Positions 1,149 through 57,799 of a stretch of DNA of 64,000 nt are shown piece after piece. The position numbers and the translations under genes were made by a program. Source of the stretch: an uncultured Candidatus Saccharibacteria bacterium (GTDB lineage: Bacteria > Patescibacteriota > Minisyncoccia > Phycocordibacterales > CSBR16-119); the NCBI GenBank assembly GCA_964490365.1, contig CAZBAG010000003.1:18116-82115 (forward strand), read 5' to 3'. The notes under the pieces are model-generated. The model was not told the origin of the DNA and made no database searches. It saw only the letters and a program-made list of their open reading frames with translations. Every line of letters begins with the position of its first letter. Positions within the stretch are counted from its first letter, which is position 1.

Positions 1149-1706
1149 ATGCAATCAATCAATATAGAATTTATCTTTCAAAAAATGTATAAGCTGATTA
1201 CCGGAGGACTTTCTGTCGATGGTAGTGGTTTTTTGAGAACGGTTGATAGTGTTGTCACGTTTATATTTTCGGTTGTTGCACTGATCGCTATTACGGTTAT
1301 TTTGTATGTGATTGTGCGAAAAAGTGAAATGCGAGAAAGGAAAGCTAAAAAGCTGAGTAGACCTCTTGAGGCAGAAATTGAAGTGTATAAAAAGAATGAT
1401 CGATGGCAAACAGTGCTCGATCACGTGCATTCAACCAACTCCTCTGATTGGCGACTTGCTATTATCGAAGCCGATAATATTTTAGACGAAATGATGACTC
1501 GGATGGGATACAGAGGAGATAATTTGGGAGAAAAACTTAAATCAGTCGAAGCATCAGATTTTGATACACTTCAAGAAGCATGGGAGGCACATAAAGTGAG
1601 AAATAAAATTGCTCATGAAGGTCTTAATTTCCAAATTGATCATCGAGAAGCAAAACGAGTGATCGCTCAATTTGAAAAAGTTTTCAAAGAATTTGAATTC
1701 ATTTAA
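1149..1706 (+). CDS. Hypothetical membrane-anchored protein (one transmembrane segment, helical C-terminal domain)
   Basis: A 185-aa ORF lies directly downstream of gatA with a hydrophobic segment VVTFIFSVVALIAITVILYVIV. No family was recognised. Confidence 0.45.
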   Translation: MQSINIEFIFQKMYKLITGGLSVDGSGFLRTVDSVVTFIFSVVALIAITVILYVIVRKSEMRERKAKKLSRPLEAEIEVYKKNDRWQTVLDHVHSTNSSDWRLAIIEADNILDEMMTRMGYRGDNLGEKLKSVEASDFDTLQEAWEAHKVRNKIAHEGLNFQIDHREAKRVIAQFEKVFKEFEFI

Positions 1707-1767
1707 GATTGTTTTAAAATCTTGCAAAAAGCTAAAAAGTATGTAGAATTAAACCACTGAAGTATAT

Positions 1768-1830
1768 CGCGGGTACCGCAGTGGTAGTTCCAAAAGGAAC
1801 TTATAGTGCGAATAACCTGAGGTTATGATG
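1768..1830 (+). pseudogene. Degenerate tRNA-fMet-like partial copy with a hairpin insertion
   Basis: It shares the CGCGGG 5' end, the GCAGTGGTAG D-arm and an ATAACCTGA(G)G anticodon-arm segment with the genuine tRNA-fMet 100 nt downstream. A GTTCCAAAAGGAAC hairpin is inserted in the D-loop. The T-arm and acceptor 3' end are missing. Confidence 0.35.
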
Positions 1831-1866
1831 TAAAAGTTGTTGTAGTTAGGTTTAAACAAAATAGAT

Positions 1867-1937
1867 CGCGGGGTAGAGCAGTGGTAGCTCATCAGGCTCA
1901 TAACCTGAAGGCGGCCGTTCGAGTCGGCCCCCCGCAA
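1867..1937 (+). tRNA. Initiator tRNA-fMet (anticodon CAT)
   Basis: Manual fold: acceptor CGCGGGG/CCCCGCA with a C1-A72 mismatch (bacterial initiator hallmark). D-arm GAGC..GCTC, anticodon loop CTCATAA, T-arm GGCCG-TTCGAGT-CGGCC. CCA is not encoded. A hairpin plus T-run terminator follows at 1947-1976. Confidence 0.8.
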
Positions 1938-2023
1938 CATGTAAAACAAAAGCGTCCTCTGGGCGCTTTTGTTTTAGCTCACAAAGCTTGACTTTATTTA
2001 AAATATATAGTATATTAAAAGCC

Positions 2024-2365
2024 AACGAACTTTCAACCATTCCAAACCAAACACTGAATCGCCATGGGACACTCTGAAGAGAATGAAGCTCGCTATGTTG
2101 CTGAGACTGATATCAAAGCTGAAATGAGCAGAGCTGAGGGCGAGGATCCGTCATTCCTGCCCGGAGAACTGGACGGCGCGATAAAAGCGATATGCGGAGC
2201 ATCTGATCGAGCACCCTTGGAGGATGTTGCCACTGATCAGTTCAAAGGCTTTCCCTCGGGCGATCACATGATGGGTAAGCTTTTCGACCGTTGCGCAACA
2301 AGCGGGCACGCTGCATTCTATTGATGTTGGTGCGCTGATAAAGGACCTTCTCAAACCGAGAAGGT
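2024..2365 (+). other. GC-rich promoter-to-terminator transcription unit embedded in the tRNA cluster: candidate structured ncRNA or foreign small ORF (2064-2324, 86 aa)
   Basis: A near-consensus sigma70 promoter, TTGACT-17 nt-TATATT, sits at 1988-2016. A strong intrinsic terminator GGACCTTCTC-AAACC-GAGAAGGTCC plus T-run sits at 2341-2375. GC is about 50% against about 38% in the flanks. The 86-aa ORF is low-complexity and its codon usage is unlike the neighbours. Confidence 0.3.
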
Positions 2366-2420
2366 CCTTTGTGCTTTTTATCTTGAAAATTACTTCATTC
2401 TATGTTACTTTGTATCCATT

Positions 2421-2494
2421 GTCGGGGTAGCTCAGATGGTTAGAGCGTAGCACTCATAACGCTAAGGTCGTGGGTTCGACTCCCACCCTCGACA
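2421..2494 (+). tRNA. tRNA-Met (anticodon CAT; elongator type, could be lysidine tRNA-Ile2)
   Basis: Manual fold: acceptor GTCGGGG/CCTCGAC, D-arm GCTC-AGATGGTTA-GAGC, anticodon loop CTCATAA, T-arm GTGGG-TTCGACT-CCCAC. Confidence 0.75.
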
Positions 2495-2559
2495 CAATTT
2501 TCAAGCGTTGGCAAACGTATCTCTTTGTGATAAACTTGCGACGTTGGAAGTTAATATTT

Positions 2560-2633
2560 GCGGTCGTAGCTCAACTGGTTAGAGCACCCGCCTGTCACGT
2601 GGGAGGTTACGGGTTCAAGTCCCGCCGATCGCG
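2560..2633 (+). tRNA. tRNA-Asp (anticodon GTC)
   Basis: Manual fold: acceptor GCGGTCG/CGATCGC, D-arm GCTC-AACTGGTTA-GAGC, anticodon loop CTGTCAC, T-arm ACGGG-TTCAAGT-CCCGC. A terminator hairpin follows at 2641-2672. Confidence 0.8.
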
Positions 2634-2787
2634 CAAATTAAGAAAAGCCTGACATGTAAAGTCAGGTTTTTCTTATGGTAGGAGGGGAGTAATGTTTGGG
2701 AAACATTACGTTCGGGACTTGAAAACCTTTTGAGCTTAAAACTCCGCTTGTGAAGTTTTAACCAAAAGGTGTACTGAAGCTGTAAGC

Positions 2788-2814
2788 TTCAAGTCCTAGC
2801 AATCGCGCAAATAC
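2788..2814 (+). repeat. Direct repeat of the 3' end of tRNA-Asp (T-loop plus acceptor 3' strand), about 155 bp downstream of the gene
   Basis: TTCAAGTCCTAGCAATCGCGCAAAT matches the tRNA-Asp 3' end TTCAAGTCCCGCCGATCGCGCAAAT at 22 of 25 positions. Confidence 0.55.
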
Positions 2815-2863
2815 AAAAAGAGTCTTTGTAAAAAGGCTCTTTTTGTTTTAATATGTTCTCATT

Positions 2864-2936
2864 GCCGTTGTAGCTCAGTTGGTAGAGCACACCCATGGTA
2901 AGGGTGAGGTCTCGGGTTCGATTCCCGACAATGGCT
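2864..2936 (+). tRNA. tRNA-Thr (anticodon GGT)
   Basis: Manual fold: acceptor GCCGTTG/CAATGGC, D-arm GCTC-AGTTGGTA-GAGC, anticodon stem CACCC/GGGTG with loop ATGGTAA, T-arm TCGGG-TTCGATT-CCCGA. Confidence 0.8.
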
Positions 2937-3065
2937 CCTTTGGAGACATTGAGCAGGCTTTTGCCTGCGATCGGAATCGAAAGGCGGAGGTATATTTTTG
3001 TTTGAGCTTTGCTCAAGGCAAAAATACCGAGCCGGGGTCGCGAAATTTTTCCGTCAGGAAAAATA

Positions 3066-3084
3066 TTTGTGACCGATTCCCGAC
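3066..3084 (+). repeat. Direct repeat of the 3' end of tRNA-Thr, about 130 bp downstream of the gene
   Basis: GATTCCCGACAATGGCTC is identical to the last 18 nt of the tRNA-Thr gene at 2920-2937. Confidence 0.6.
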
Positions 3085-3143
3085 AATGGCTCACATATTT
3101 ACTTTTTCTTGTTTTTGTTGTATTGTCAGCAAAAACAAAGTTC

Positions 3144-3644
3144 ATGCAACTTCAACCCACAAAAAAGGCTTTGAAAGCCCTTAGTCTTTTGACCTCTGCG
3201 CTGGCAGAAGATGCTCTGACCGATAAACAAAGGGCTCACATTGCTGAAGTTTTAGAAGCTCTAGCTGAAAACCCTAAAAGTGTATCTATCAACAGATCTC
3301 AACTTGAGCTTGTTTGGCCAGATTCAGAAAGGTATCTTGGTGCGGATCACGGTGGTAGACTTGCAGTCCTAATTTCTCCTGCTTTTGACCGTCAAAAGAA
3401 GAAGTTGCAGGCCATGCTTGTGTCTTGTGGTATTCAACCAACAAGAATTACAATATTATGTTCAAGTGAGCGTAATGTCGAGGCAATGCTCGGTTCTCAT
3501 CATTGTAGGGCGGTAATTTTCATGAACAGTATCCCTAAAAGGCTTATTGACGGTCTACCCGTGGAAACATCTGCACCCCTAAAAGGTCTCAGGAGTGAGC
3601 AGGTTCGTCAGGCAGTTGACAACCTCAGGAAATTGCTAAGCTGA
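3144..3644 (+). CDS. Hypothetical protein, GC-rich relative to the flanks, immediately after the tRNA-Thr 3' repeat
   Basis: The ORF starts at ATG 3144 (the upstream part of the track ORF overlaps the tRNA repeat). It ends with TGA at 3642-3644. GC is about 45%. No family was recognised. Confidence 0.4.
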   Translation: MQLQPTKKALKALSLLTSALAEDALTDKQRAHIAEVLEALAENPKSVSINRSQLELVWPDSERYLGADHGGRLAVLISPAFDRQKKKLQAMLVSCGIQPTRITILCSSERNVEAMLGSHHCRAVIFMNSIPKRLIDGLPVETSAPLKGLRSEQVRQAVDNLRKLLS

Positions 3645-3721
3645 GCTCTAACATTCATCAAAAAGTCCTGTCTATGACAGGGCTTTTTTCTTTCTATCTT
3701 ATTTGATATAGTGGCGTTACT

Positions 3722-4600
3722 ATGACAAATGAAGAAATAACTTCACAGATTCAATCTCTTGAAGCAGAGATGGCTCGGCCAGATTTTTGAACAAATAAAG
3801 TAGAAGCTCAATCTACAATAAAAAAAATCCAAGAACTAAAAGATAAACTAGAAGGGTTAGCAAAGTACGATAAAAAATCAGCCATTCTTAATATTTTTGC
3901 TGGGGCAGGTGGTGATGATGCCGAAGACTTTGTAAGAATTTTATACGAAATGTATTCACGTTTTTGTGATGCGCATAATTTTTCACAAAAAATTACGAGT
4001 GCTCACACAAACGAACGAAATGGCTATCGAGCGATTTCTATCGAGATTACCGGGAAAAATGTATACGGACTTTTAAAGAGAGAATCGGGCGTACACAGGC
4101 TTGTAAGAATTTCTCCTTTTAATGCAAATGCAAAGCGCCATACTTCGTTTGCTATGGTTGAATTTATTCCTCTGATTGAGCATGTTGATGATTTTATTCT
4201 TCCAAAAGATGACGTAGAGGTTTCTTTTGCTCGAAGTTCTGGTCCTGGTGGACAAAACGTGAACAAACGCGATACTGCTGTTCGTCTGGTCCATGTGCCA
4301 ACAGGTATTGCCGTGCATGTTGAGTCAGAGCGTAGTCAAGAAGCGAATCGAGAAAAAGCAGAGCACATGTTACGAGGGAAACTCATAAAAATTCTTGAAG
4401 AAAAGCAGAAAGAAACACTCGGAGAGCTTGCTATTTCAAAGGTTGTCGACAATGAATGGGGTAGTCAAATACGTTCATATGTCTTCCATCCGTATCAAAT
4501 GGTGAAAGACCATCGGACTGGTGTGGAGATTCGTGATATTGAAAAAGTGCTAAAATCTGGGGAAATCGACGAATTTATTGAGGCAGAACGCTCATTATAG
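3722..4600 (+). CDS. prfB: Peptide chain release factor 2 with an in-frame UGA at codon 23 (3788-3790), the canonical prfB recoding position
   Basis: Downstream of the UGA the same frame stays open and encodes [28 protein letters not shown], the RF2-specific SPF motif ([16 protein letters not shown]) and GGQ (GPGGQNVNK). An N-terminal [28 protein letters not shown], ends at the UGA. The +1 frame hits TAG after four codons. Confidence 0.75.
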
Positions 4601-8931: not shown

Positions 8932-9651
8932 TTATTCTTCTCGCATCGGTGCATTTTTTACAATTCGCACAATCTCATCCTCATCATCGGTAATTGTGTA
9001 GAGATTAAGATCTTCTGGGGATATAGTTTCAAATTCTTTGAGCATCGTTTCGCGTATCATCCTATCAAGTGGTTCCCAGAATTTTTTACCAACTAATATT
9101 ATTGGCACTTTTGAAATTTTACCTGTTTGAACGAGCGTTAAAATTTCAAAGAGTTCATCAAAGGTTCCAAATCCACCAGGGAAGTAAAGATACGCTTCAG
9201 CAGAATATGCCATGAGAACCTTTCGTGTAAAAAAGAAATAGAACGGTATTTCGTCAGTAACATACCTATTTGTATACTGTTCCATTGGAAGCTTAATTGT
9301 TAAACCAAAAGATGGTTTTCCCATTTCGTAAGCGCCACGGTTTCCAGCTTCCATAATACCTGGTCCACCACCAGTAACGATTGAATAGCCAAGCTCTCCA
9401 GCGATACGTCGAGACAGTCTAAGTGCTCGTTGATAGTCTTCATGGCCTTCAGCTAAACGGGCAGAGCCCCAAAAAGTTACCGATTTGTTATGATCTTTGC
9501 TACTTTTGATAATATCAAAACCTTGGCGAAATTCTTCATTGATAACACAAATACGAGTTTCTGTTTCGTCTCCATCTGTGACATAGATACATCCGCTTTT
9601 AATTTCATCAAGAGTGAGGCGTTTTGGTCGAAATGGTTTTTGCTCTTTCAT
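8932..9651 (-). CDS. LOG-family (TIGR00730) Rossmann-fold nucleotide phosphoribohydrolase
   Basis: Motifs VTGGGPGIMEAGNRGA and PGGFGTFDELFE. Confidence 0.75.
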   Translation of the reverse strand: MKEQKPFRPKRLTLDEIKSGCIYVTDGDETETRICVINEEFRQGFDIIKSSKDHNKSVTFWGSARLAEGHEDYQRALRLSRRIAGELGYSIVTGGGPGIMEAGNRGAYEMGKPSFGLTIKLPMEQYTNRYVTDEIPFYFFFTRKVLMAYSAEAYLYFPGGFGTFDELFEILTLVQTGKISKVPIILVGKKFWEPLDRMIRETMLKEFETISPEDLNLYTITDDEDEIVRIVKNAPMREE

Positions 9652-9724
9652 ACGTCATCTATTGTATCTTATTTTGAGAAAAATGATGAGTTCTGGTATA
9701 ACTGAGATGTGTGAAAACACTCAT

Positions 9725-9795
9725 TGCCAGATCGTCTAATGGTAGGACAACGGTTTCTGGTACCGTTTATCTTGGTTCGAGCCCAAGTCTGGCAG
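9725..9795 (+). tRNA. tRNA-Gln (anticodon CTG)
   Basis: Manual fold: acceptor TGCCAGA/TCTGGCA with U1-A72 as in bacterial tRNA-Gln. D-arm GTCT-AATGGTA-GGAC, anticodon stem ACGGT/ACCGT with loop TTCTGGT, T-arm CTTGG-TTCGAGC-CCAAG. Confidence 0.8.
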
Positions 9796-9812
9796 CAGTA
9801 AAGTATATTTCA

Positions 9813-10325
9813 CTATCTTCTTCTCTCAAAAAGATGGGTTACTGCGCAACCTAAAATACCGCCCATAATAAGTGCATCAAAAGGGAATTCAGTGTGTTCT
9901 TCTGATTCAGCATGGTGAGTTTCTTCCGAAGTTTCTACATGTTTATGATTACCTAAAAGAAGAAGCGACAGGAGTCCAACTAATATACCAGCAAGAATTG
10001 CTTTTAAGGCGTTGTGTGAATGACGTTTAAATTCGCTTACAAGAAACACGATATCAAACAGCGCGTGTATTCCGTGAAAGATTAATTCGCCAGTTGTATA
10101 TGACAAGCCAACACTAACATGTTGAGACCACTCAATAGTCATATGCACTGCAAGTAGCAGGATTGTCACAAAGCCTTTTCTTGCATGCGCAAAATAGGCA
10201 AGGAGGACACCAGACAGTAGGGCAATGCCACTGAGTACTGTCCAATCAATATTCTTTGCATGAATGCCAAGTACGACAATGTACAAGACAAGAAATATTT
10301 TAAATAGAATTTCTTTCGTTCGCAT
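9813..10325 (-). CDS. His-rich polytopic membrane protein, possibly a HupE/UreJ-like metal transporter
   Basis: A 170-aa protein with about five transmembrane segments and His clusters (HKHVETSEETHHAESEEHTEF; HMTIEWSQH). It is divergent from a Fur-family regulator across a palindromic operator. Confidence 0.4.
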   Translation of the reverse strand: MRTKEILFKIFLVLYIVVLGIHAKNIDWTVLSGIALLSGVLLAYFAHARKGFVTILLLAVHMTIEWSQHVSVGLSYTTGELIFHGIHALFDIVFLVSEFKRHSHNALKAILAGILVGLLSLLLLGNHKHVETSEETHHAESEEHTEFPFDALIMGGILGCAVTHLFERRR

Positions 10326-56338: not shown

Positions 56339-57799
56339 ATGATTACAAAGAAGCAAAAAAGTGTCCTAGATTTCATCACTGATTATCAAAAGAGTAAGGG
56401 GTATGCTCCCGCTCTTGAGGAGATAAGGAAGAAATTTAAACTTGCTTCTGTTTCAACTGCTCATCATCATGTGACAAAGCTTCGTGATTTGGGATATCTT
56501 GAGAAAGAAGAGAACAAACCTAGAGCAATTGATATCGTGGATAGAGAGATGATGGTAAAAATCCCTCTTCTTGGAACTATTGCAGCAGGACAACCCATTG
56601 AAGCTATACAAAATAAAGAGACTATTGCTGTGGCTAAAAGCAAAATACCTTCCTCTTCTGAGGTCTATGCTTTACGTGTTGTCGGAAATAGTATGATTGA
56701 GGAAAATATTAATGATGGAGACATTATTTTAGTAAAAAATCAGCAGACAGCAGAGAATGGACAGAAAGTTGTAGCTCTTATAGATAATCAAGAAACAACA
56801 CTAAAGAAATTTTATAAAGAAAAAGGACATATTCGACTCCAGCCAGCAAATAAGGATATGGAACCTCTTATTTTTAAGAGTACTAAAGATGTATCTGTTC
56901 AAGGCGTAGTGCTTGATGTGATAAAAGAACAAAGGTCCCTTCCTCTAGAGTTACCAGAACAAAAAGAATTAGAAAAATTTAAGGAACTTCCTTTAAATAA
57001 ATTTATATGTGGTGACGCGATACATTATCTTCGAAGACTACCAGATAGGTCAGTAGATCTAATTGTCGCAGATCCTCCTTACAATCTTTCTAAGGGAAGT
57101 AATATCCGTTTTGATAACCAAGTTAATAAACTTAAGGGTTTTGGTGGTACCTGGAATAAAGTTATGGAGCAATGGGATAGCATGCCAATGGCGGATTATT
57201 TTGAATTTACTATTAAGTGGGTACAGGAAGCAAAAAGAGTTTTAAAACCTACAGGTTCTATATGGGTATTTGGAACTTACCACAATATTGGAATTATTAA
57301 CTTTATTTTCCAAACTCTCGGCATCGAAATTATCAATGAAGTAGTTTGGTATAAACGTAATGCTTTTCCAAATCTAGCAGGGCGAAGATTTACAGCAAGT
57401 CACGAGACATTATTGTGGGGTCATGTTGGAAATGAAAAGAGACAATATTACTTTGACTATAAACAATCTAAAAGTTATGCAGACCCTTCTGATTTATTAA
57501 AGGCGGGAGGAAAACAGATGCGTACTGTTTGGGATATTCCAAACAACAAAGGAGCCGGGGAGATTAGCTTTGGTAAGCACCCAACCCAAAAACCATTGAG
57601 TGTTTGTAAAAGGATAATCTCTTTAACTTCTAAACCAGGTGATGTTGTCGTAGCTCCTTTTGGAGGTGCTGGAAGTGAGTGTGTTGCAGCAAAAGAATTA
57701 GGTAGAAATTATTTAGGGTTTGAGCTTGATCAGCAGTATGTGGATATAGCACAGAAACGACTTTCAGCTGTTCGTAATCAAGATACACTTTTCTCATAA
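56339..57799 (+). CDS. Fusion of a complete LexA-type repressor (wHTH plus S24 autopeptidase) to an N6-adenine/N4-cytosine DNA methyltransferase (beta class, DPPY)
   Basis: LexA half: wHTH (LEEIRKKFKLASVSTAHHHVTKLRDLGYLE), cleavage site LLGTIAAGQP, Ser motif LRVVGNSM and Lys motif QKVVALIDNQETTLKKF. Methylase half: DLIVADPPYN (motif IV), a VVVAPFGGAGSE C-terminal AdoMet motif, beta-class order. Start taken at ATG 56339. Confidence 0.85.
   Translation: MITKKQKSVLDFITDYQKSKGYAPALEEIRKKFKLASVSTAHHHVTKLRDLGYLEKEENKPRAIDIVDREMMVKIPLLGTIAAGQPIEAIQNKETIAVAKSKIPSSSEVYALRVVGNSMIEENINDGDIILVKNQQTAENGQKVVALIDNQETTLKKFYKEKGHIRLQPANKDMEPLIFKSTKDVSVQGVVLDVIKEQRSLPLELPEQKELEKFKELPLNKFICGDAIHYLRRLPDRSVDLIVADPPYNLSKGSNIRFDNQVNKLKGFGGTWNKVMEQWDSMPMADYFEFTIKWVQEAKRVLKPTGSIWVFGTYHNIGIINFIFQTLGIEIINEVVWYKRNAFPNLAGRRFTASHETLLWGHVGNEKRQYYFDYKQSKSYADPSDLLKAGGKQMRTVWDIPNNKGAGEISFGKHPTQKPLSVCKRIISLTSKPGDVVVAPFGGAGSECVAAKELGRNYLGFELDQQYVDIAQKRLSAVRNQDTLFS

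What the first reader, a model, noticed from the sequence alone, without database searches (positions are those of the whole stretch)
1768..3090. tRNA cluster carrying partial tRNA duplicates: a degenerate fMet copy and direct repeats of the 3' ends of tRNA-Asp and tRNA-Thr
The last 18 nt of tRNA-Thr recur exactly 130 bp downstream (3066-3084). The last roughly 25 nt of tRNA-Asp recur 155 bp downstream with three mismatches (2788-2812). A partial, insertion-containing copy of tRNA-fMet lies 100 nt upstream of the real gene. Duplicated tRNA 3' ends are the footprint left by tyrosine- or serine-integrase elements inserting into tRNA genes. Here the intervening DNA is only 130-155 bp. These look like scars of former integrations followed by deletion, or of repeated att-site recombination. 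Three such scars in 1.3 kb suggest this tRNA array is an integration hotspot.
Basis: seen in the sequence. Interest (0 to 1): 0.5.

Follow-up and report, generated by a model that had tools for sequence, protein, structure and literature searches.

The report
Structured insertion modules behind tRNA genes
The duplicated tRNA ends are not integrase scars: they are the closing arms of two ~150-base, tightly folded, non-coding modules from a large family, absent from Rfam 15 and from the literature I could search, that sits directly behind tRNA genes of nearly every kind in Patescibacteria-type genomes, each copy carrying a stretch that base-pairs with the tail of its own tRNA.

Summary
All three repeats are real, with small coordinate errors. 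The Thr repeat (3074-3092) and the Asp repeat (2788-2812) are each the 3' end of a complete non-coding module, not a deletion scar. A module has three parts: a segment antisense to the tRNA tail (T'), a conserved multi-helix core, and a copy of the tRNA tail from the T-loop to just past the discriminator (T2).

The Thr module (2939-3092) scores 99 bits (E 1e-24) against a covariance model built from 31 copies. That model finds 94 copies in 100 metagenome loci. Among pattern hits, copies lie behind tRNAs of 19 amino-acid specificities.

Covariation is strong: 93% of cells paired against 71-74% in shuffles, with conserved G.U pairs valid only on the tRNA-sense strand. T' matches its own tRNA (7.1/8 pairs against 5.7 with swapped partners). 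The Asp module is a decayed copy of a second core type.

Occupancy differs between close relatives, different subfamilies stack in tandem, and no Rfam family, linked protein gene or integrase was found.

Best reading: a selfish, non-autonomous, structure-dependent insertion element of tRNA gene tails, mechanism unknown. The fMet partial copy is a separate, conserved leader pseudo-tRNA.

The parts
2864..2938 (+). tRNA-Thr(GGT), complete. Its tail T1 (2919-2937) runs from T-loop C56 to one base past the discriminator.
   Evidence: (67 bits)
2939..3092 (+). Type-1 tRNA-tail module, the Thr copy. A full-length member of the family.
   Evidence: R1 covariance model: 99 bits, E 1e-24, all 164 model positions. 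MFE fold -67 kcal/mol, z -6.2, same helices as the consensus. Orthologous copy in L023 is 86% identical. Empty site in L003.
2941..2951 (+). t2' of the Thr module: TGGAGACATTG, antisense to the acceptor 3' strand, discriminator and following bases of tRNA-Thr. In the fold it pairs with T2 bases 3083-3091 (8 pairs around one A.G mismatch).
2952..2968 (+). Hairpin b of the Thr module (AGCAGGC TTTT GCCTGC). It separates the two antisense segments.
   Evidence: Compensatory changes against L023. Helices 1-2 are 91-97% paired across the family.
2971..2981 (+). t1' of the Thr module: TCGGAATCGAA, antisense to the T-stem 3' strand and T-loop of tRNA-Thr. It is followed by the invariant junction A/G.
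   Evidence: (helix 3)
2983..3033 (+). Helix P_C: GGC[G]GAG ... CGAGCC. It has a bulged G and a tandem G.A/A.G next to a lower helix that covaries.
   Evidence: helices 4-6; pair 79:134 is CG 19 / GC 11
3036..3074 (+). Helix P_D: GGTCGCGA ... TTGTGACC. It has two G.U pairs that are only possible on this strand.
   Evidence: (one pair GU in 64 sequences; the next GC 34 / GU 27 / AU 11)
3074..3092 (+). T2 of the Thr module: an exact 19-nt copy of the tRNA-Thr tail. The native downstream flank follows it.
2560..2634 (+). tRNA-Asp(GTC), complete and without an intron. The repeated block starts at 2614 and runs to 2638, four bases past the gene.
2643..2671 (+). Terminator-like hairpin directly after tRNA-Asp, lying between T1 and the antisense part of the Asp module.
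   Evidence: (I6)
2672..2812 (+). Type-2 tRNA-tail module, the Asp copy, partly decayed. Parts: hairpin b 2690-2708 (GGGA loop); t1' CGGGACTTGAA 2713-2723; helix 2725-2770; signature GTACTGAAGCTGTAAGC 2771-2787; T2 2788-2812 (21/25 to T1). The t2' segment has been lost.
   Evidence: R1 gives 22.8 bits, E 1e-4. The type-2 signature is shared with L027, L055, L068/L140 and L141 (x2). The consensus fold of 5 copies has 15 of 30 predicted pairs kept through changes on both sides.
2813..2846 (+). Intrinsic-terminator-like hairpin after the Asp T2. Presumably the original tRNA-Asp terminator, displaced by the insertion.
   Evidence: (I1)
2421..2495 (+). tRNA-Met (elongator type). Here the site is empty. 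The same site is filled with a type-1 module in L001, L002, L023, L026 and L089, and L003 keeps a 17-nt stump.
1867..1938 (+). tRNA-fMet. No module follows it here, but a type-1 module follows it in L003 and L115.
1768..1827 (+). Leader pseudo-tRNA: the 5' part of tRNA-fMet (acceptor 5' strand, D-arm, part of the anticodon arm) with inserted hairpins. A separate phenomenon from the tail modules.
   Evidence: Conserved upstream of tRNA-fMet in all 10 relatives, and it moves together with the tRNA in inversions.
1722..1749 (+). Promoter-like site TTGCAA-16-TAGAAT upstream of the pseudo-tRNA. The TATGTAGAATTAA block containing its second hexamer recurs in most relatives.

Best explanation
The Thr and Asp repeats are the ends of two small non-coding insertion modules from a superfamily that lives at the tails of tRNA genes. 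A module consists of:
- T': one or two segments antisense to the tRNA from the T-loop to a few bases past the discriminator, usually split by a hairpin;
- a conserved core of helices: type 1 has P_C with tandem G.A pairs and P_D with conserved G.U pairs; type 2 has a different core;
- T2: a second copy of that same tRNA tail.

The module sits so that the upstream tRNA gene stays whole (T1) and the gene's original downstream flank follows T2.

On the tRNA-sense strand, T' pairs with T2 and closes a compact multi-helix fold. The Thr copy has no terminator between it and tRNA-Thr, so it is most likely made as RNA on the same transcript.

I read the family as selfish, non-autonomous mobile elements. 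They enter, stack up at and are lost from tRNA tails through the T repeat. T' specifies the cognate tRNA, and it also ties up the decoy tail so that it cannot compete with the real tail during tRNA folding. The conserved core is the handle, or the catalytic part, for a factor supplied in trans that I could not identify.

Shown: the architecture, the family, the fold and its strand, the match of T' to the tRNA, differences in occupancy between relatives, and tandem stacking.
Inferred: mobility as such, the RNA (rather than single-stranded DNA) form, the masking role of T', and every enzymatic step.
For: Family and fold:
- Model R1 finds 94 copies in 100 metagenome loci, plus copies in L001, L002, L003, L019, L023 and L026.
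- 93.4% of cells are paired against 74.2% in shuffles on A2, and 92.8% against 71.4% on A3. Cells with changes on both sides number 183 against 51 (A2) and 557 against 147 (A3). No shuffle of 500 reaches the observed values, and slid controls give 34-50%.
- Conserved G.U pairs in P_D fix the folded strand as the tRNA-sense strand.

Target matching:
- Of the 117 distinct pattern hits, 62 have a same-strand tRNA within 400 nt upstream, covering 19 specificities.
- t1' pairs 7.09/8 with its own T against 5.73 with permuted partners (maximum 6.06 in 2000 permutations).
- T1 and T2 are identical in 23 of 60 copies and differ at 3 or fewer positions in 41 of 60.

Insertion and turnover:
- Clean empty sites against filled sites exist at Met and Thr among genomes whose neighbouring gene is 79-90% identical.
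- L003 keeps a 17-nt stump at the Met site.
- Two different subfamilies lie in tandem behind one tRNA in L045 and L108; identical tandem units occur in L096.
- In the biased sample, 63 of 185 tRNA genes carry a tail repeat.
- The Met and fMet modules share a 79% identical core, but their T segments are only 61% identical, and the t2' of the fMet copy is still Met-like.

No coding capacity or partner:
- No Rfam match.
- No enriched neighbouring protein.
- No recombinase or reverse-transcriptase domain in the 30 window ORFs scanned.
- Nothing in the phage or plasmid collections, and only chance hits in viral contigs.
Against: - No enzyme or intermediate is known, and no fresh transposition event (identical copies at unlinked sites) was seen.
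- Part of the presence/absence pattern is loss rather than gain (L003 stump).
- High occupancy (34% of tRNA genes in a biased sample) and strong purifying selection on the core fit a host function as well as a selfish one.
- Many copies, including the window's Asp copy, have a terminator-like hairpin between the tRNA and T'. This makes co-transcription doubtful for them and leaves room for a single-stranded-DNA form.
- The t2':t2 helix is only weakly supported family-wide (5.48 against 5.16 pairs of 7).
- The metagenome set was collected with a pattern taken from the core, so conservation of those bases is partly circular.
Confidence: 0.5

Rival explanations
1. A host-serving, tRNA-linked structured RNA. 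The module would be a cis-acting or released RNA that helps or regulates its tRNA, for example by offering a tRNA-like minihelix to RNase P/Z for 3'-end processing, or by acting as a decoy of the tRNA tail. It would be inherited with the tRNA gene, homogenised with it by gene conversion, and often lost by recombination between T1 and T2.
For: - Strong covariation and conserved G.U and G.A motifs.
- Always the same strand as the tRNA and immediately 3' of it.
- High occupancy.
- No mobility gene.
- Some of the polymorphism is deletion.
- t1' pairs slightly better with the real tail than with T2 (7.4 against 7.1 of 8).
Against: - Patchy among close relatives at four tRNAs.
- Absent from many Paceibacterota arrays (L006, L007, L012, L018).
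- Heterologous tandem copies behind one tRNA.
- Orphan copies without a tRNA.
- T2 decays while the core persists (L023 and L026 Met copies).
- Terminator-like hairpins sit ahead of many copies.
Confidence: 0.25
2. A folded single-stranded-DNA cassette, like an integron attC. On the lagging-strand template, T' and T2 would fold into a double-stranded mimic of the tRNA-gene tail, and a host tyrosine recombinase would recombine this with the real gene. The module would then be a promoterless mini-cassette rather than an RNA.
For: - An imperfect inverted repeat with bulges, strand-specific G.T pairs, and tandem arrays at one target.
- C-GAA-G loops are the commonest helix tip; from memory, d(GCGAAGC) is an unusually stable DNA mini-hairpin.
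- Terminator-like hairpins lie upstream of many copies.
- GC skew puts the tRNA-sense strand on the leading strand, so by inference the sense sequence is the lagging-strand template here.
Against: - No integrase was found near any copy.
- The core is conserved in sequence, unlike attC sites.
- A single sequence-specific recombinase could not read 19 different tRNA tails.
- GNRA-type loops and conserved G.U pairs are more typical of RNA.
Confidence: 0.12
3. One reading: footprints of tyrosine- or serine-integrase islands that integrated into tRNA genes and were later almost completely deleted.
For: - The direct repeats start in the T-loop and end just past the tRNA. From memory (Williams 2002), this is the usual identity block of tRNA-targeting integrases.
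- The array varies between relatives.
Against: - The DNA between the repeats is a conserved, covarying structure shared across 19 tRNA types and unrelated hosts.
- Independent deletions could not leave the same 150 nt each time.
- There is no integrase or integrase remnant.
Confidence: 0.04
4. Decayed tandem duplicates of the tRNA genes themselves.
For: t2' and the 5' part of t1' resemble the acceptor and T-stem 5' strands, as any sequence that pairs with the tail must.
Against: - The same core occurs behind unrelated tRNAs.
- There is no D-arm or anticodon-arm remnant.
- The T-loop is present in antisense.
Confidence: 0.02

Closest known systems
Genomic islands or prophages integrated at tRNA genes by tyrosine integrases (att repeats, CIME-like remnants, tycheposon arrays). 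Recalled from memory, plus the tRNA-fragment paper 10.1101/2022.07.05.498093 (title and abstract only).
   Same: The insert sits at the tRNA tail, the tRNA is kept whole, and a direct repeat runs from the T-loop to just past the 3' end. Repeated use of the same site gives arrays.
   Different: The module is 135-190 nt with no genes and no integrase. Its interior is a conserved folded structure carrying an antisense copy of the target. One core family serves all tRNA types.
Integron gene cassettes with attC sites (from memory)
   Same: Small promoterless units that stack in arrays at one target. They are defined by an imperfect inverted repeat that folds on one strand and contains extrahelical bases.
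   Different: There is no intI/attI platform and no GTTRRRY core. The target is a tRNA tail, the inverted repeat is target-derived, and the interior is conserved in sequence.
Bacterial MITEs such as Correia, RUP/BOX and RPE elements (from memory)
   Same: Short, non-coding, multi-copy elements with a folded transcript, mobilised (if at all) in trans.
   Different: There are no terminal inverted repeats matching an IS and no short fixed target duplication. The site is strictly specified by complementarity to a tRNA.
Group I introns in Patescibacteria tRNA genes (PMC13011429). Seen here in the tRNA-Asp of L002 and L023.
   Same: Selfish structured RNAs residing in the tRNA genes of the same organisms, mostly without their own endonuclease. 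They use base pairing with the tRNA sequence.
   Different: The module does not interrupt the tRNA, needs no splicing, has no Rfam group I match, and lies 3' of the gene with a duplicated tail.
Guide-bearing non-coding RNAs of mobile elements (IS110 bridge RNA or seekRNA, group II intron EBS; from memory)
   Same: A conserved scaffold carries short segments complementary to the insertion target, placed on either side of a hairpin.
   Different: No recombinase or intron-encoded protein gene is attached. Both guide halves pair with the same strand. The duplicated segment is 19-25 nt long.

Membership tests
tRNA-tail module, type 1 (family defined here, model R1) | A full-length match to the covariance model: hairpin b, the t1':T2 helix, P_C with a bulged G and tandem G.A, and P_D with G.U pairs | tested here: met
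   Window 2936-3093 scores 99 bits, E 1e-24, over model positions 1-164. The independent MFE fold gives the same helices.
tRNA-tail module, type 1 | The module lies directly 3' of a same-strand tRNA whose tail it repeats (T2) and complements (T') | tested here: met
   T2 is 19/19 identical to the tRNA-Thr tail. In the fold, t2' forms 8 pairs around one mismatch and t1' forms 6 contiguous pairs with T2; by eye, 3 more follow across a bulged C.
tRNA-tail module, type 2 (window Asp copy) | GGGA-loop hairpin, t1', the ACC...GGT helix, the signature GTACWGAANCTGTAAG, and T2 starting at T54 | tested here: met
   The signature and layout are shared with 5 other loci. The consensus fold covaries. T2 is decayed (21/25) and t2' is lost. 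The R1 match is only weak (22.8 bits).
Integrase-mediated tRNA-gene island or its scar | A direct repeat of the tRNA 3' part flanks the insert | tested here: met
Integrase-mediated tRNA-gene island or its scar | An integrase gene or its remnant lies in or beside the insert | tested here: not met
   There is no room for an ORF in 135-153 nt. No recombinase domain occurs in the 30 window ORFs scanned. No family is enriched near 88 loci.
Integrase-mediated tRNA-gene island or its scar | The insert content is heterogeneous island DNA | tested here: not met
   The insert is a conserved covarying structure.
MITE | Terminal inverted repeats plus a short fixed target-site duplication | tested here: not met
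   The inverted repeat is T'/T2 and is target-derived. The duplication is 19-25 nt of tRNA.
Integron cassette / attC | An intI/attI platform and the GTTRRRY core sites | tested here: not met
   No integrase was found. The boundaries are the P_D end 'GACC' and the tRNA tail.
Group I intron (RF00028) | It interrupts the gene and matches the group I model | tested here: not met
   The upstream tRNAs are complete. No Rfam hit appeared at E<=10 (window region) or E<=1 (ten loci).
Any Rfam 15 family | A match to a curated covariance model | tested here: not met
   Only tRNA and noise hits appeared in window 1500-4000 and in 10 element-bearing loci.
Retroelement primer-binding site | Complementarity to the mature tRNA 3' end, including the CCA | tested here: not met
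   The 4 nt upstream of t2' match the genomic trailer better than TGG plus the N73 complement (79 against 63 of 160 positions).
tRNA-like structure (tmRNA TLD or viral TLS type) | An acceptor-like stem formed from the 5' and 3' ends | tested here: inconclusive
   Present in the Thr copy, but weak family-wide.
tRNA-like structure (tmRNA TLD or viral TLS type) | A T-arm with a free T-loop, CCA addition, and aminoacylation | not testable with these tools
   The T-loop half in T2 is base-paired or absent. Processing and charging need experiments.

The most novel reading that the evidence does not exclude
The conserved core is a catalytic RNA, or a scaffold for a host factor, that uses T' as a programmable guide. 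The module RNA (or its single-stranded DNA form) pairs with the tail of the matching tRNA gene, and the module is inserted at the edge of that duplex. The result is a mobile element without any protein gene of its own, retargetable by a few base changes. The Met-to-fMet pair suggests this: the cores are 79% identical while the T segments differ.
Probability: 0.12. Interest if true: 0.95.

Novelty: categorically new. Interest (0 to 1): 0.82.

Why it matters
If this holds, a sizeable share of tRNA genes in a major, poorly understood bacterial radiation carry an uncatalogued class of structured non-coding element. In the biased sample here the share was a third.

Its architecture is a conserved scaffold plus a segment complementary to its own insertion target plus a copy of that target. 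I know of no counterpart to this.

Three consequences follow:
- tRNA-fragment calls in such genomes would need reinterpreting.
- There would be a new structured RNA family to characterise, with roughly 160 model positions, strong covariation, and tandem G.A and conserved G.U motifs.
- Two questions become open: how a gene-less element keeps target specificity, and how tiny genomes tolerate it.

If the guide reading is right, it would be a minimal programmable insertion system.

Tried and rejected
- Known RNA families: Rfam at E<=10 (window region) and E<=1 (ten loci) gave nothing.
- Hammerhead, HDV-like, group I, box C/D and K-turn layouts were compared by eye and do not fit. There is no pseudoknot order, no omega-G, no CUGAUGA, and only a 1-nt bulge.
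- Primer-binding-site idea (T' matching the mature CCA end): rejected.
- True T-loop intron (tRNA 5' part + module + T2, without T1): no such case among 28 pattern hits lacking an upstream tRNA call. Those are contig edges, orphans or decayed copies.
- Cargo or a distant second repeat in copies with a poor T2: none found, and T2 is simply truncated.
- A linked protein: all-against-all clustering of 628 neighbouring ORFs gave only housekeeping families, each in 5 or fewer of 88 loci.
- Phage or plasmid origin: no match. The viral-contig scan gave two chance hits.
- Thermodynamic co-folding of tRNA-Thr plus module is degenerate because T1 = T2. The MFE swaps the two tails, so it says nothing about masking.
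- Taxonomic assignment of the metagenome loci was not achieved. Locus GC ranges from 29% to 62%.
- Six literature searches found no description. The library is open-access only, so a prior description cannot be excluded.
Full report
**Observation.** ARAGORN and Rfam agree on four + strand tRNA genes: fMet 1867-1938, Met 2421-2495, Asp 2560-2634 and Thr 2864-2938.
- The last 19 nt of tRNA-Thr (2919-2937) recur exactly at 3074-3092. There are 2 matches where 0.02 are expected with up to 3 mismatches.
- The Asp tail (2614-2638) recurs at 2788-2812 with 21/25 identity. No such match appeared in 300 shuffles.
- A partial 5' copy of tRNA-fMet lies at 1768-1827.

So all three observations are real.

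**First clue from relatives.** I used the 185-aa gene just upstream (1149-1706) to fetch related loci. The organisms are Paceibacterota-type Patescibacteria, and the fMet-Met-Asp-Thr array is conserved. Close relatives show the same layout, a tRNA followed by 135-190 nt and then a repeat of its tail, but behind other tRNAs:
- Met in L001, L002, L023, L026 and L089;
- fMet in L003 and L115;
- Asp in L003, L023, L026, L027 and L019 (two copies in tandem);
- Thr in L023.

The inserts are homologous to each other. Each contains a segment antisense to the T-loop and T-stem of its own tRNA, and this segment changes with the tRNA: AATTGAA, AGTCGAA, ACTCGAA and AATCGAA.

**Empty and filled sites.**
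- The window's Met site is clean. L001 and L026 carry the module there, with the native flank resuming after the second tail copy. L003 keeps only the first 17 nt of the module, which is an imprecise deletion.
- The Thr site is filled in the window and L023 and clean in L003.

The unit that comes and goes is therefore the module body plus one copy of the tail. Part of the polymorphism is loss.

**Breadth.** A pattern taken from the core was scanned over metagenome contigs.
- Of 117 distinct hits, 62 have a same-strand tRNA ending within 400 nt upstream. These cover 19 amino-acid specificities.
- In most of them the tRNA tail recurs with 0-3 mismatches about 65-115 nt after the core start.
- By eye, roughly a quarter of the hits are chance matches in GC-rich coding DNA.
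- The viral-contig scan gave two hits, which on inspection look like chance matches.

**Structure.** On 31 copies (alignment A2) I wrote a six-helix structure by hand: hairpin b (two helix segments), the t1':T2 helix, P_C (two segments) and P_D.
- 93.4% of cells are paired against 74.2% in shuffles.
- 183 cells have changes on both sides against 51 in shuffles, and no shuffle of 500 reaches the observed values.
- Slid controls give 34-40%.

Model R1, built from A2, finds 94 copies in 100 metagenome loci, several loci holding 2-3 copies.
- On that alignment, 92.8% of cells are paired against 71.4% in shuffles, and 557 cells have changes on both sides against 147.
- In P_D, one pair is G.U in 64 sequences. 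The next is GC 34 / GU 27 / AU 11. The folded strand is therefore the tRNA-sense strand.
- P_C carries an invariant bulged G and a tandem G.A next to a lower helix that flips between GCC:GGC and GGC:GCC.

**The window copies.**
- Thr module: window 2936-3093 scores 99 bits (E 1e-24), full length. The only other window hit is 2672-2809 at 22.8 bits.
- The Thr module folds by itself into the consensus shape (-67 kcal/mol, z -6.2).
- No terminator lies between it and tRNA-Thr.
- Asp module: it belongs to a second core type, with signature GTACWGAANCTGTAAG and T2 starting at T54. This type also occurs in L027, L055, L068/L140 and twice in L141, and its fold covaries.
- The window's Asp copy is partly decayed. 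T2 is 21/25 and the acceptor-antisense segment is lost.
- Further core variants exist.

**Target matching.**
- t1' pairs 7.09/8 with its own T2 against 5.73 with permuted partners (maximum 6.06 in 2000 permutations).
- The acceptor-antisense segment t2' is clear in the window's Thr copy (8 pairs around one mismatch) but weak family-wide (5.48 against 5.16 of 7).
- T1 and T2 are identical in 23 of 60 copies and differ at 3 or fewer positions in 41 of 60. Where they differ, t1' pairs at least as well with the real tRNA.
- T' extends into the genomic trailer, not into the CCA, so it is not a primer-binding site for mature tRNA.

**What it is not.**
- No Rfam family matches.
- No protein family is enriched next to 88 loci.
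- No recombinase or reverse-transcriptase domain occurs among the 30 window ORFs scanned.
- Nothing matches in the phage or plasmid collections.
- The 28 pattern hits without an upstream tRNA call are contig edges, orphans or decayed copies. None is a tRNA 5' part joined directly to a module, so the module is not an intron.

**Signs of turnover.**
- Two different subfamilies sit in tandem behind one tRNA in L045 and L108. Identical tandem units occur in L096.
- In this biased sample, 63 of 185 tRNA genes carry a tail repeat 40-435 nt downstream.
- The Met module of L002 and the fMet module of L003 have 79% identical cores, but their T segments are only 61% identical, and the t2' of the fMet copy still looks Met-like. 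This suggests a recent change of target.

**Interpretation.** The best-supported reading (about 0.5) is a selfish, non-autonomous, structure-dependent insertion element of tRNA tails.
- T2 is the recombination or duplication product that keeps the tRNA whole.
- T' specifies the cognate tRNA and sequesters the decoy tail.
- The core serves an unknown trans-acting factor, or is itself catalytic.

The rivals are:
- a host-serving tRNA-linked RNA (0.25);
- a folded single-stranded-DNA cassette of the integron type (0.12);
- decayed tRNA duplicates (0.02).

I could not identify the enzyme or decide between RNA and single-stranded DNA. C-GAA-G loops are the commonest helix tip, and terminator-like hairpins lie ahead of many copies. 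Both keep the DNA form alive.

**The fMet copy.** The 5'-part pseudo-tRNA is conserved upstream of tRNA-fMet in all 10 relatives examined. In the window it lies downstream of the promoter-like TTGCAA-16-TAGAAT, whose second-hexamer block (TATGTAGAATTAA) recurs in most relatives, and it is inverted together with the tRNA in some genomes. It is a leader element or an old partial duplication. It is not an att footprint and not a member of the tail-module family.

**Novelty and limits.** Six literature searches found only the group I intron paper for these tRNA genes (PMC13011429) and a general paper on tRNA fragments.
- The library is open-access only.
- The metagenome set is biased by my search pattern.
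- Host taxonomy of those loci is unverified (GC 29-62%).

Within those limits, the architecture has no known counterpart.

Noticed in passing
window 3722-4600 (TGA at 3788-3790); L023 about 9343-10233: The RF2 gene (prfB) has an in-frame TGA at codon 23 ('ARPDF*TNKVEAQ'), and the RF2 body continues in the same frame. L023 has the same TGA. L003 and L024 have TGG (Trp) at that position. The rest of the window reads with the standard code. This looks like RF2 autoregulation by UGA read-through rather than by the classical +1 frameshift.
   Followed up: partly
L002 3646-3945 and 2967-3640; L023 7911-8205 and 7234-7905: In two relatives the tRNA-Asp is split by a ~240-nt group I intron in the anticodon loop (position 35/36 type, cf. 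PMC13011429). A free-standing LAGLIDADG ORF lies immediately upstream. The window's tRNA-Asp has no intron.
   Followed up: partly
window 1768-1938 compared with L002, L003, L023; L024, L027: The block of leader pseudo-tRNA plus tRNA-fMet is inverted in L002, L003 and L023. The Met-Asp-Thr block is inverted in L024 and L027. The array therefore rearranges by inversion between close relatives.
   Followed up: no
window 1980-2400: A GC-rich (about 53%) 86-aa ORF (2064-2324) lies between tRNA-fMet and tRNA-Met. It has its own promoter-like site (1988-2016) and terminator (2338-2372). It is absent from L001 and has no Pfam match.
   Followed up: partly
window 56339-57796: A single ORF combines a LexA DNA-binding domain, an S24 peptidase domain and an N6/N4 DNA methylase domain.
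   Followed up: no
L145, L100, and the linkers of many modules (for example L128, L042): Tiny hairpins of the form GA-NN-GAA-N'N'-GA recur in the linkers and helix tips of the modules. They even occur as small insertions inside T2, as if they were a separate mini-module.
   Followed up: no
L079 (two copies), L060, L142/L075/L047, L031: Orphan modules have only a truncated T1, or a T1 of another tRNA, upstream and no tRNA gene. Some abut the start codon of a divergent gene.
   Followed up: partly
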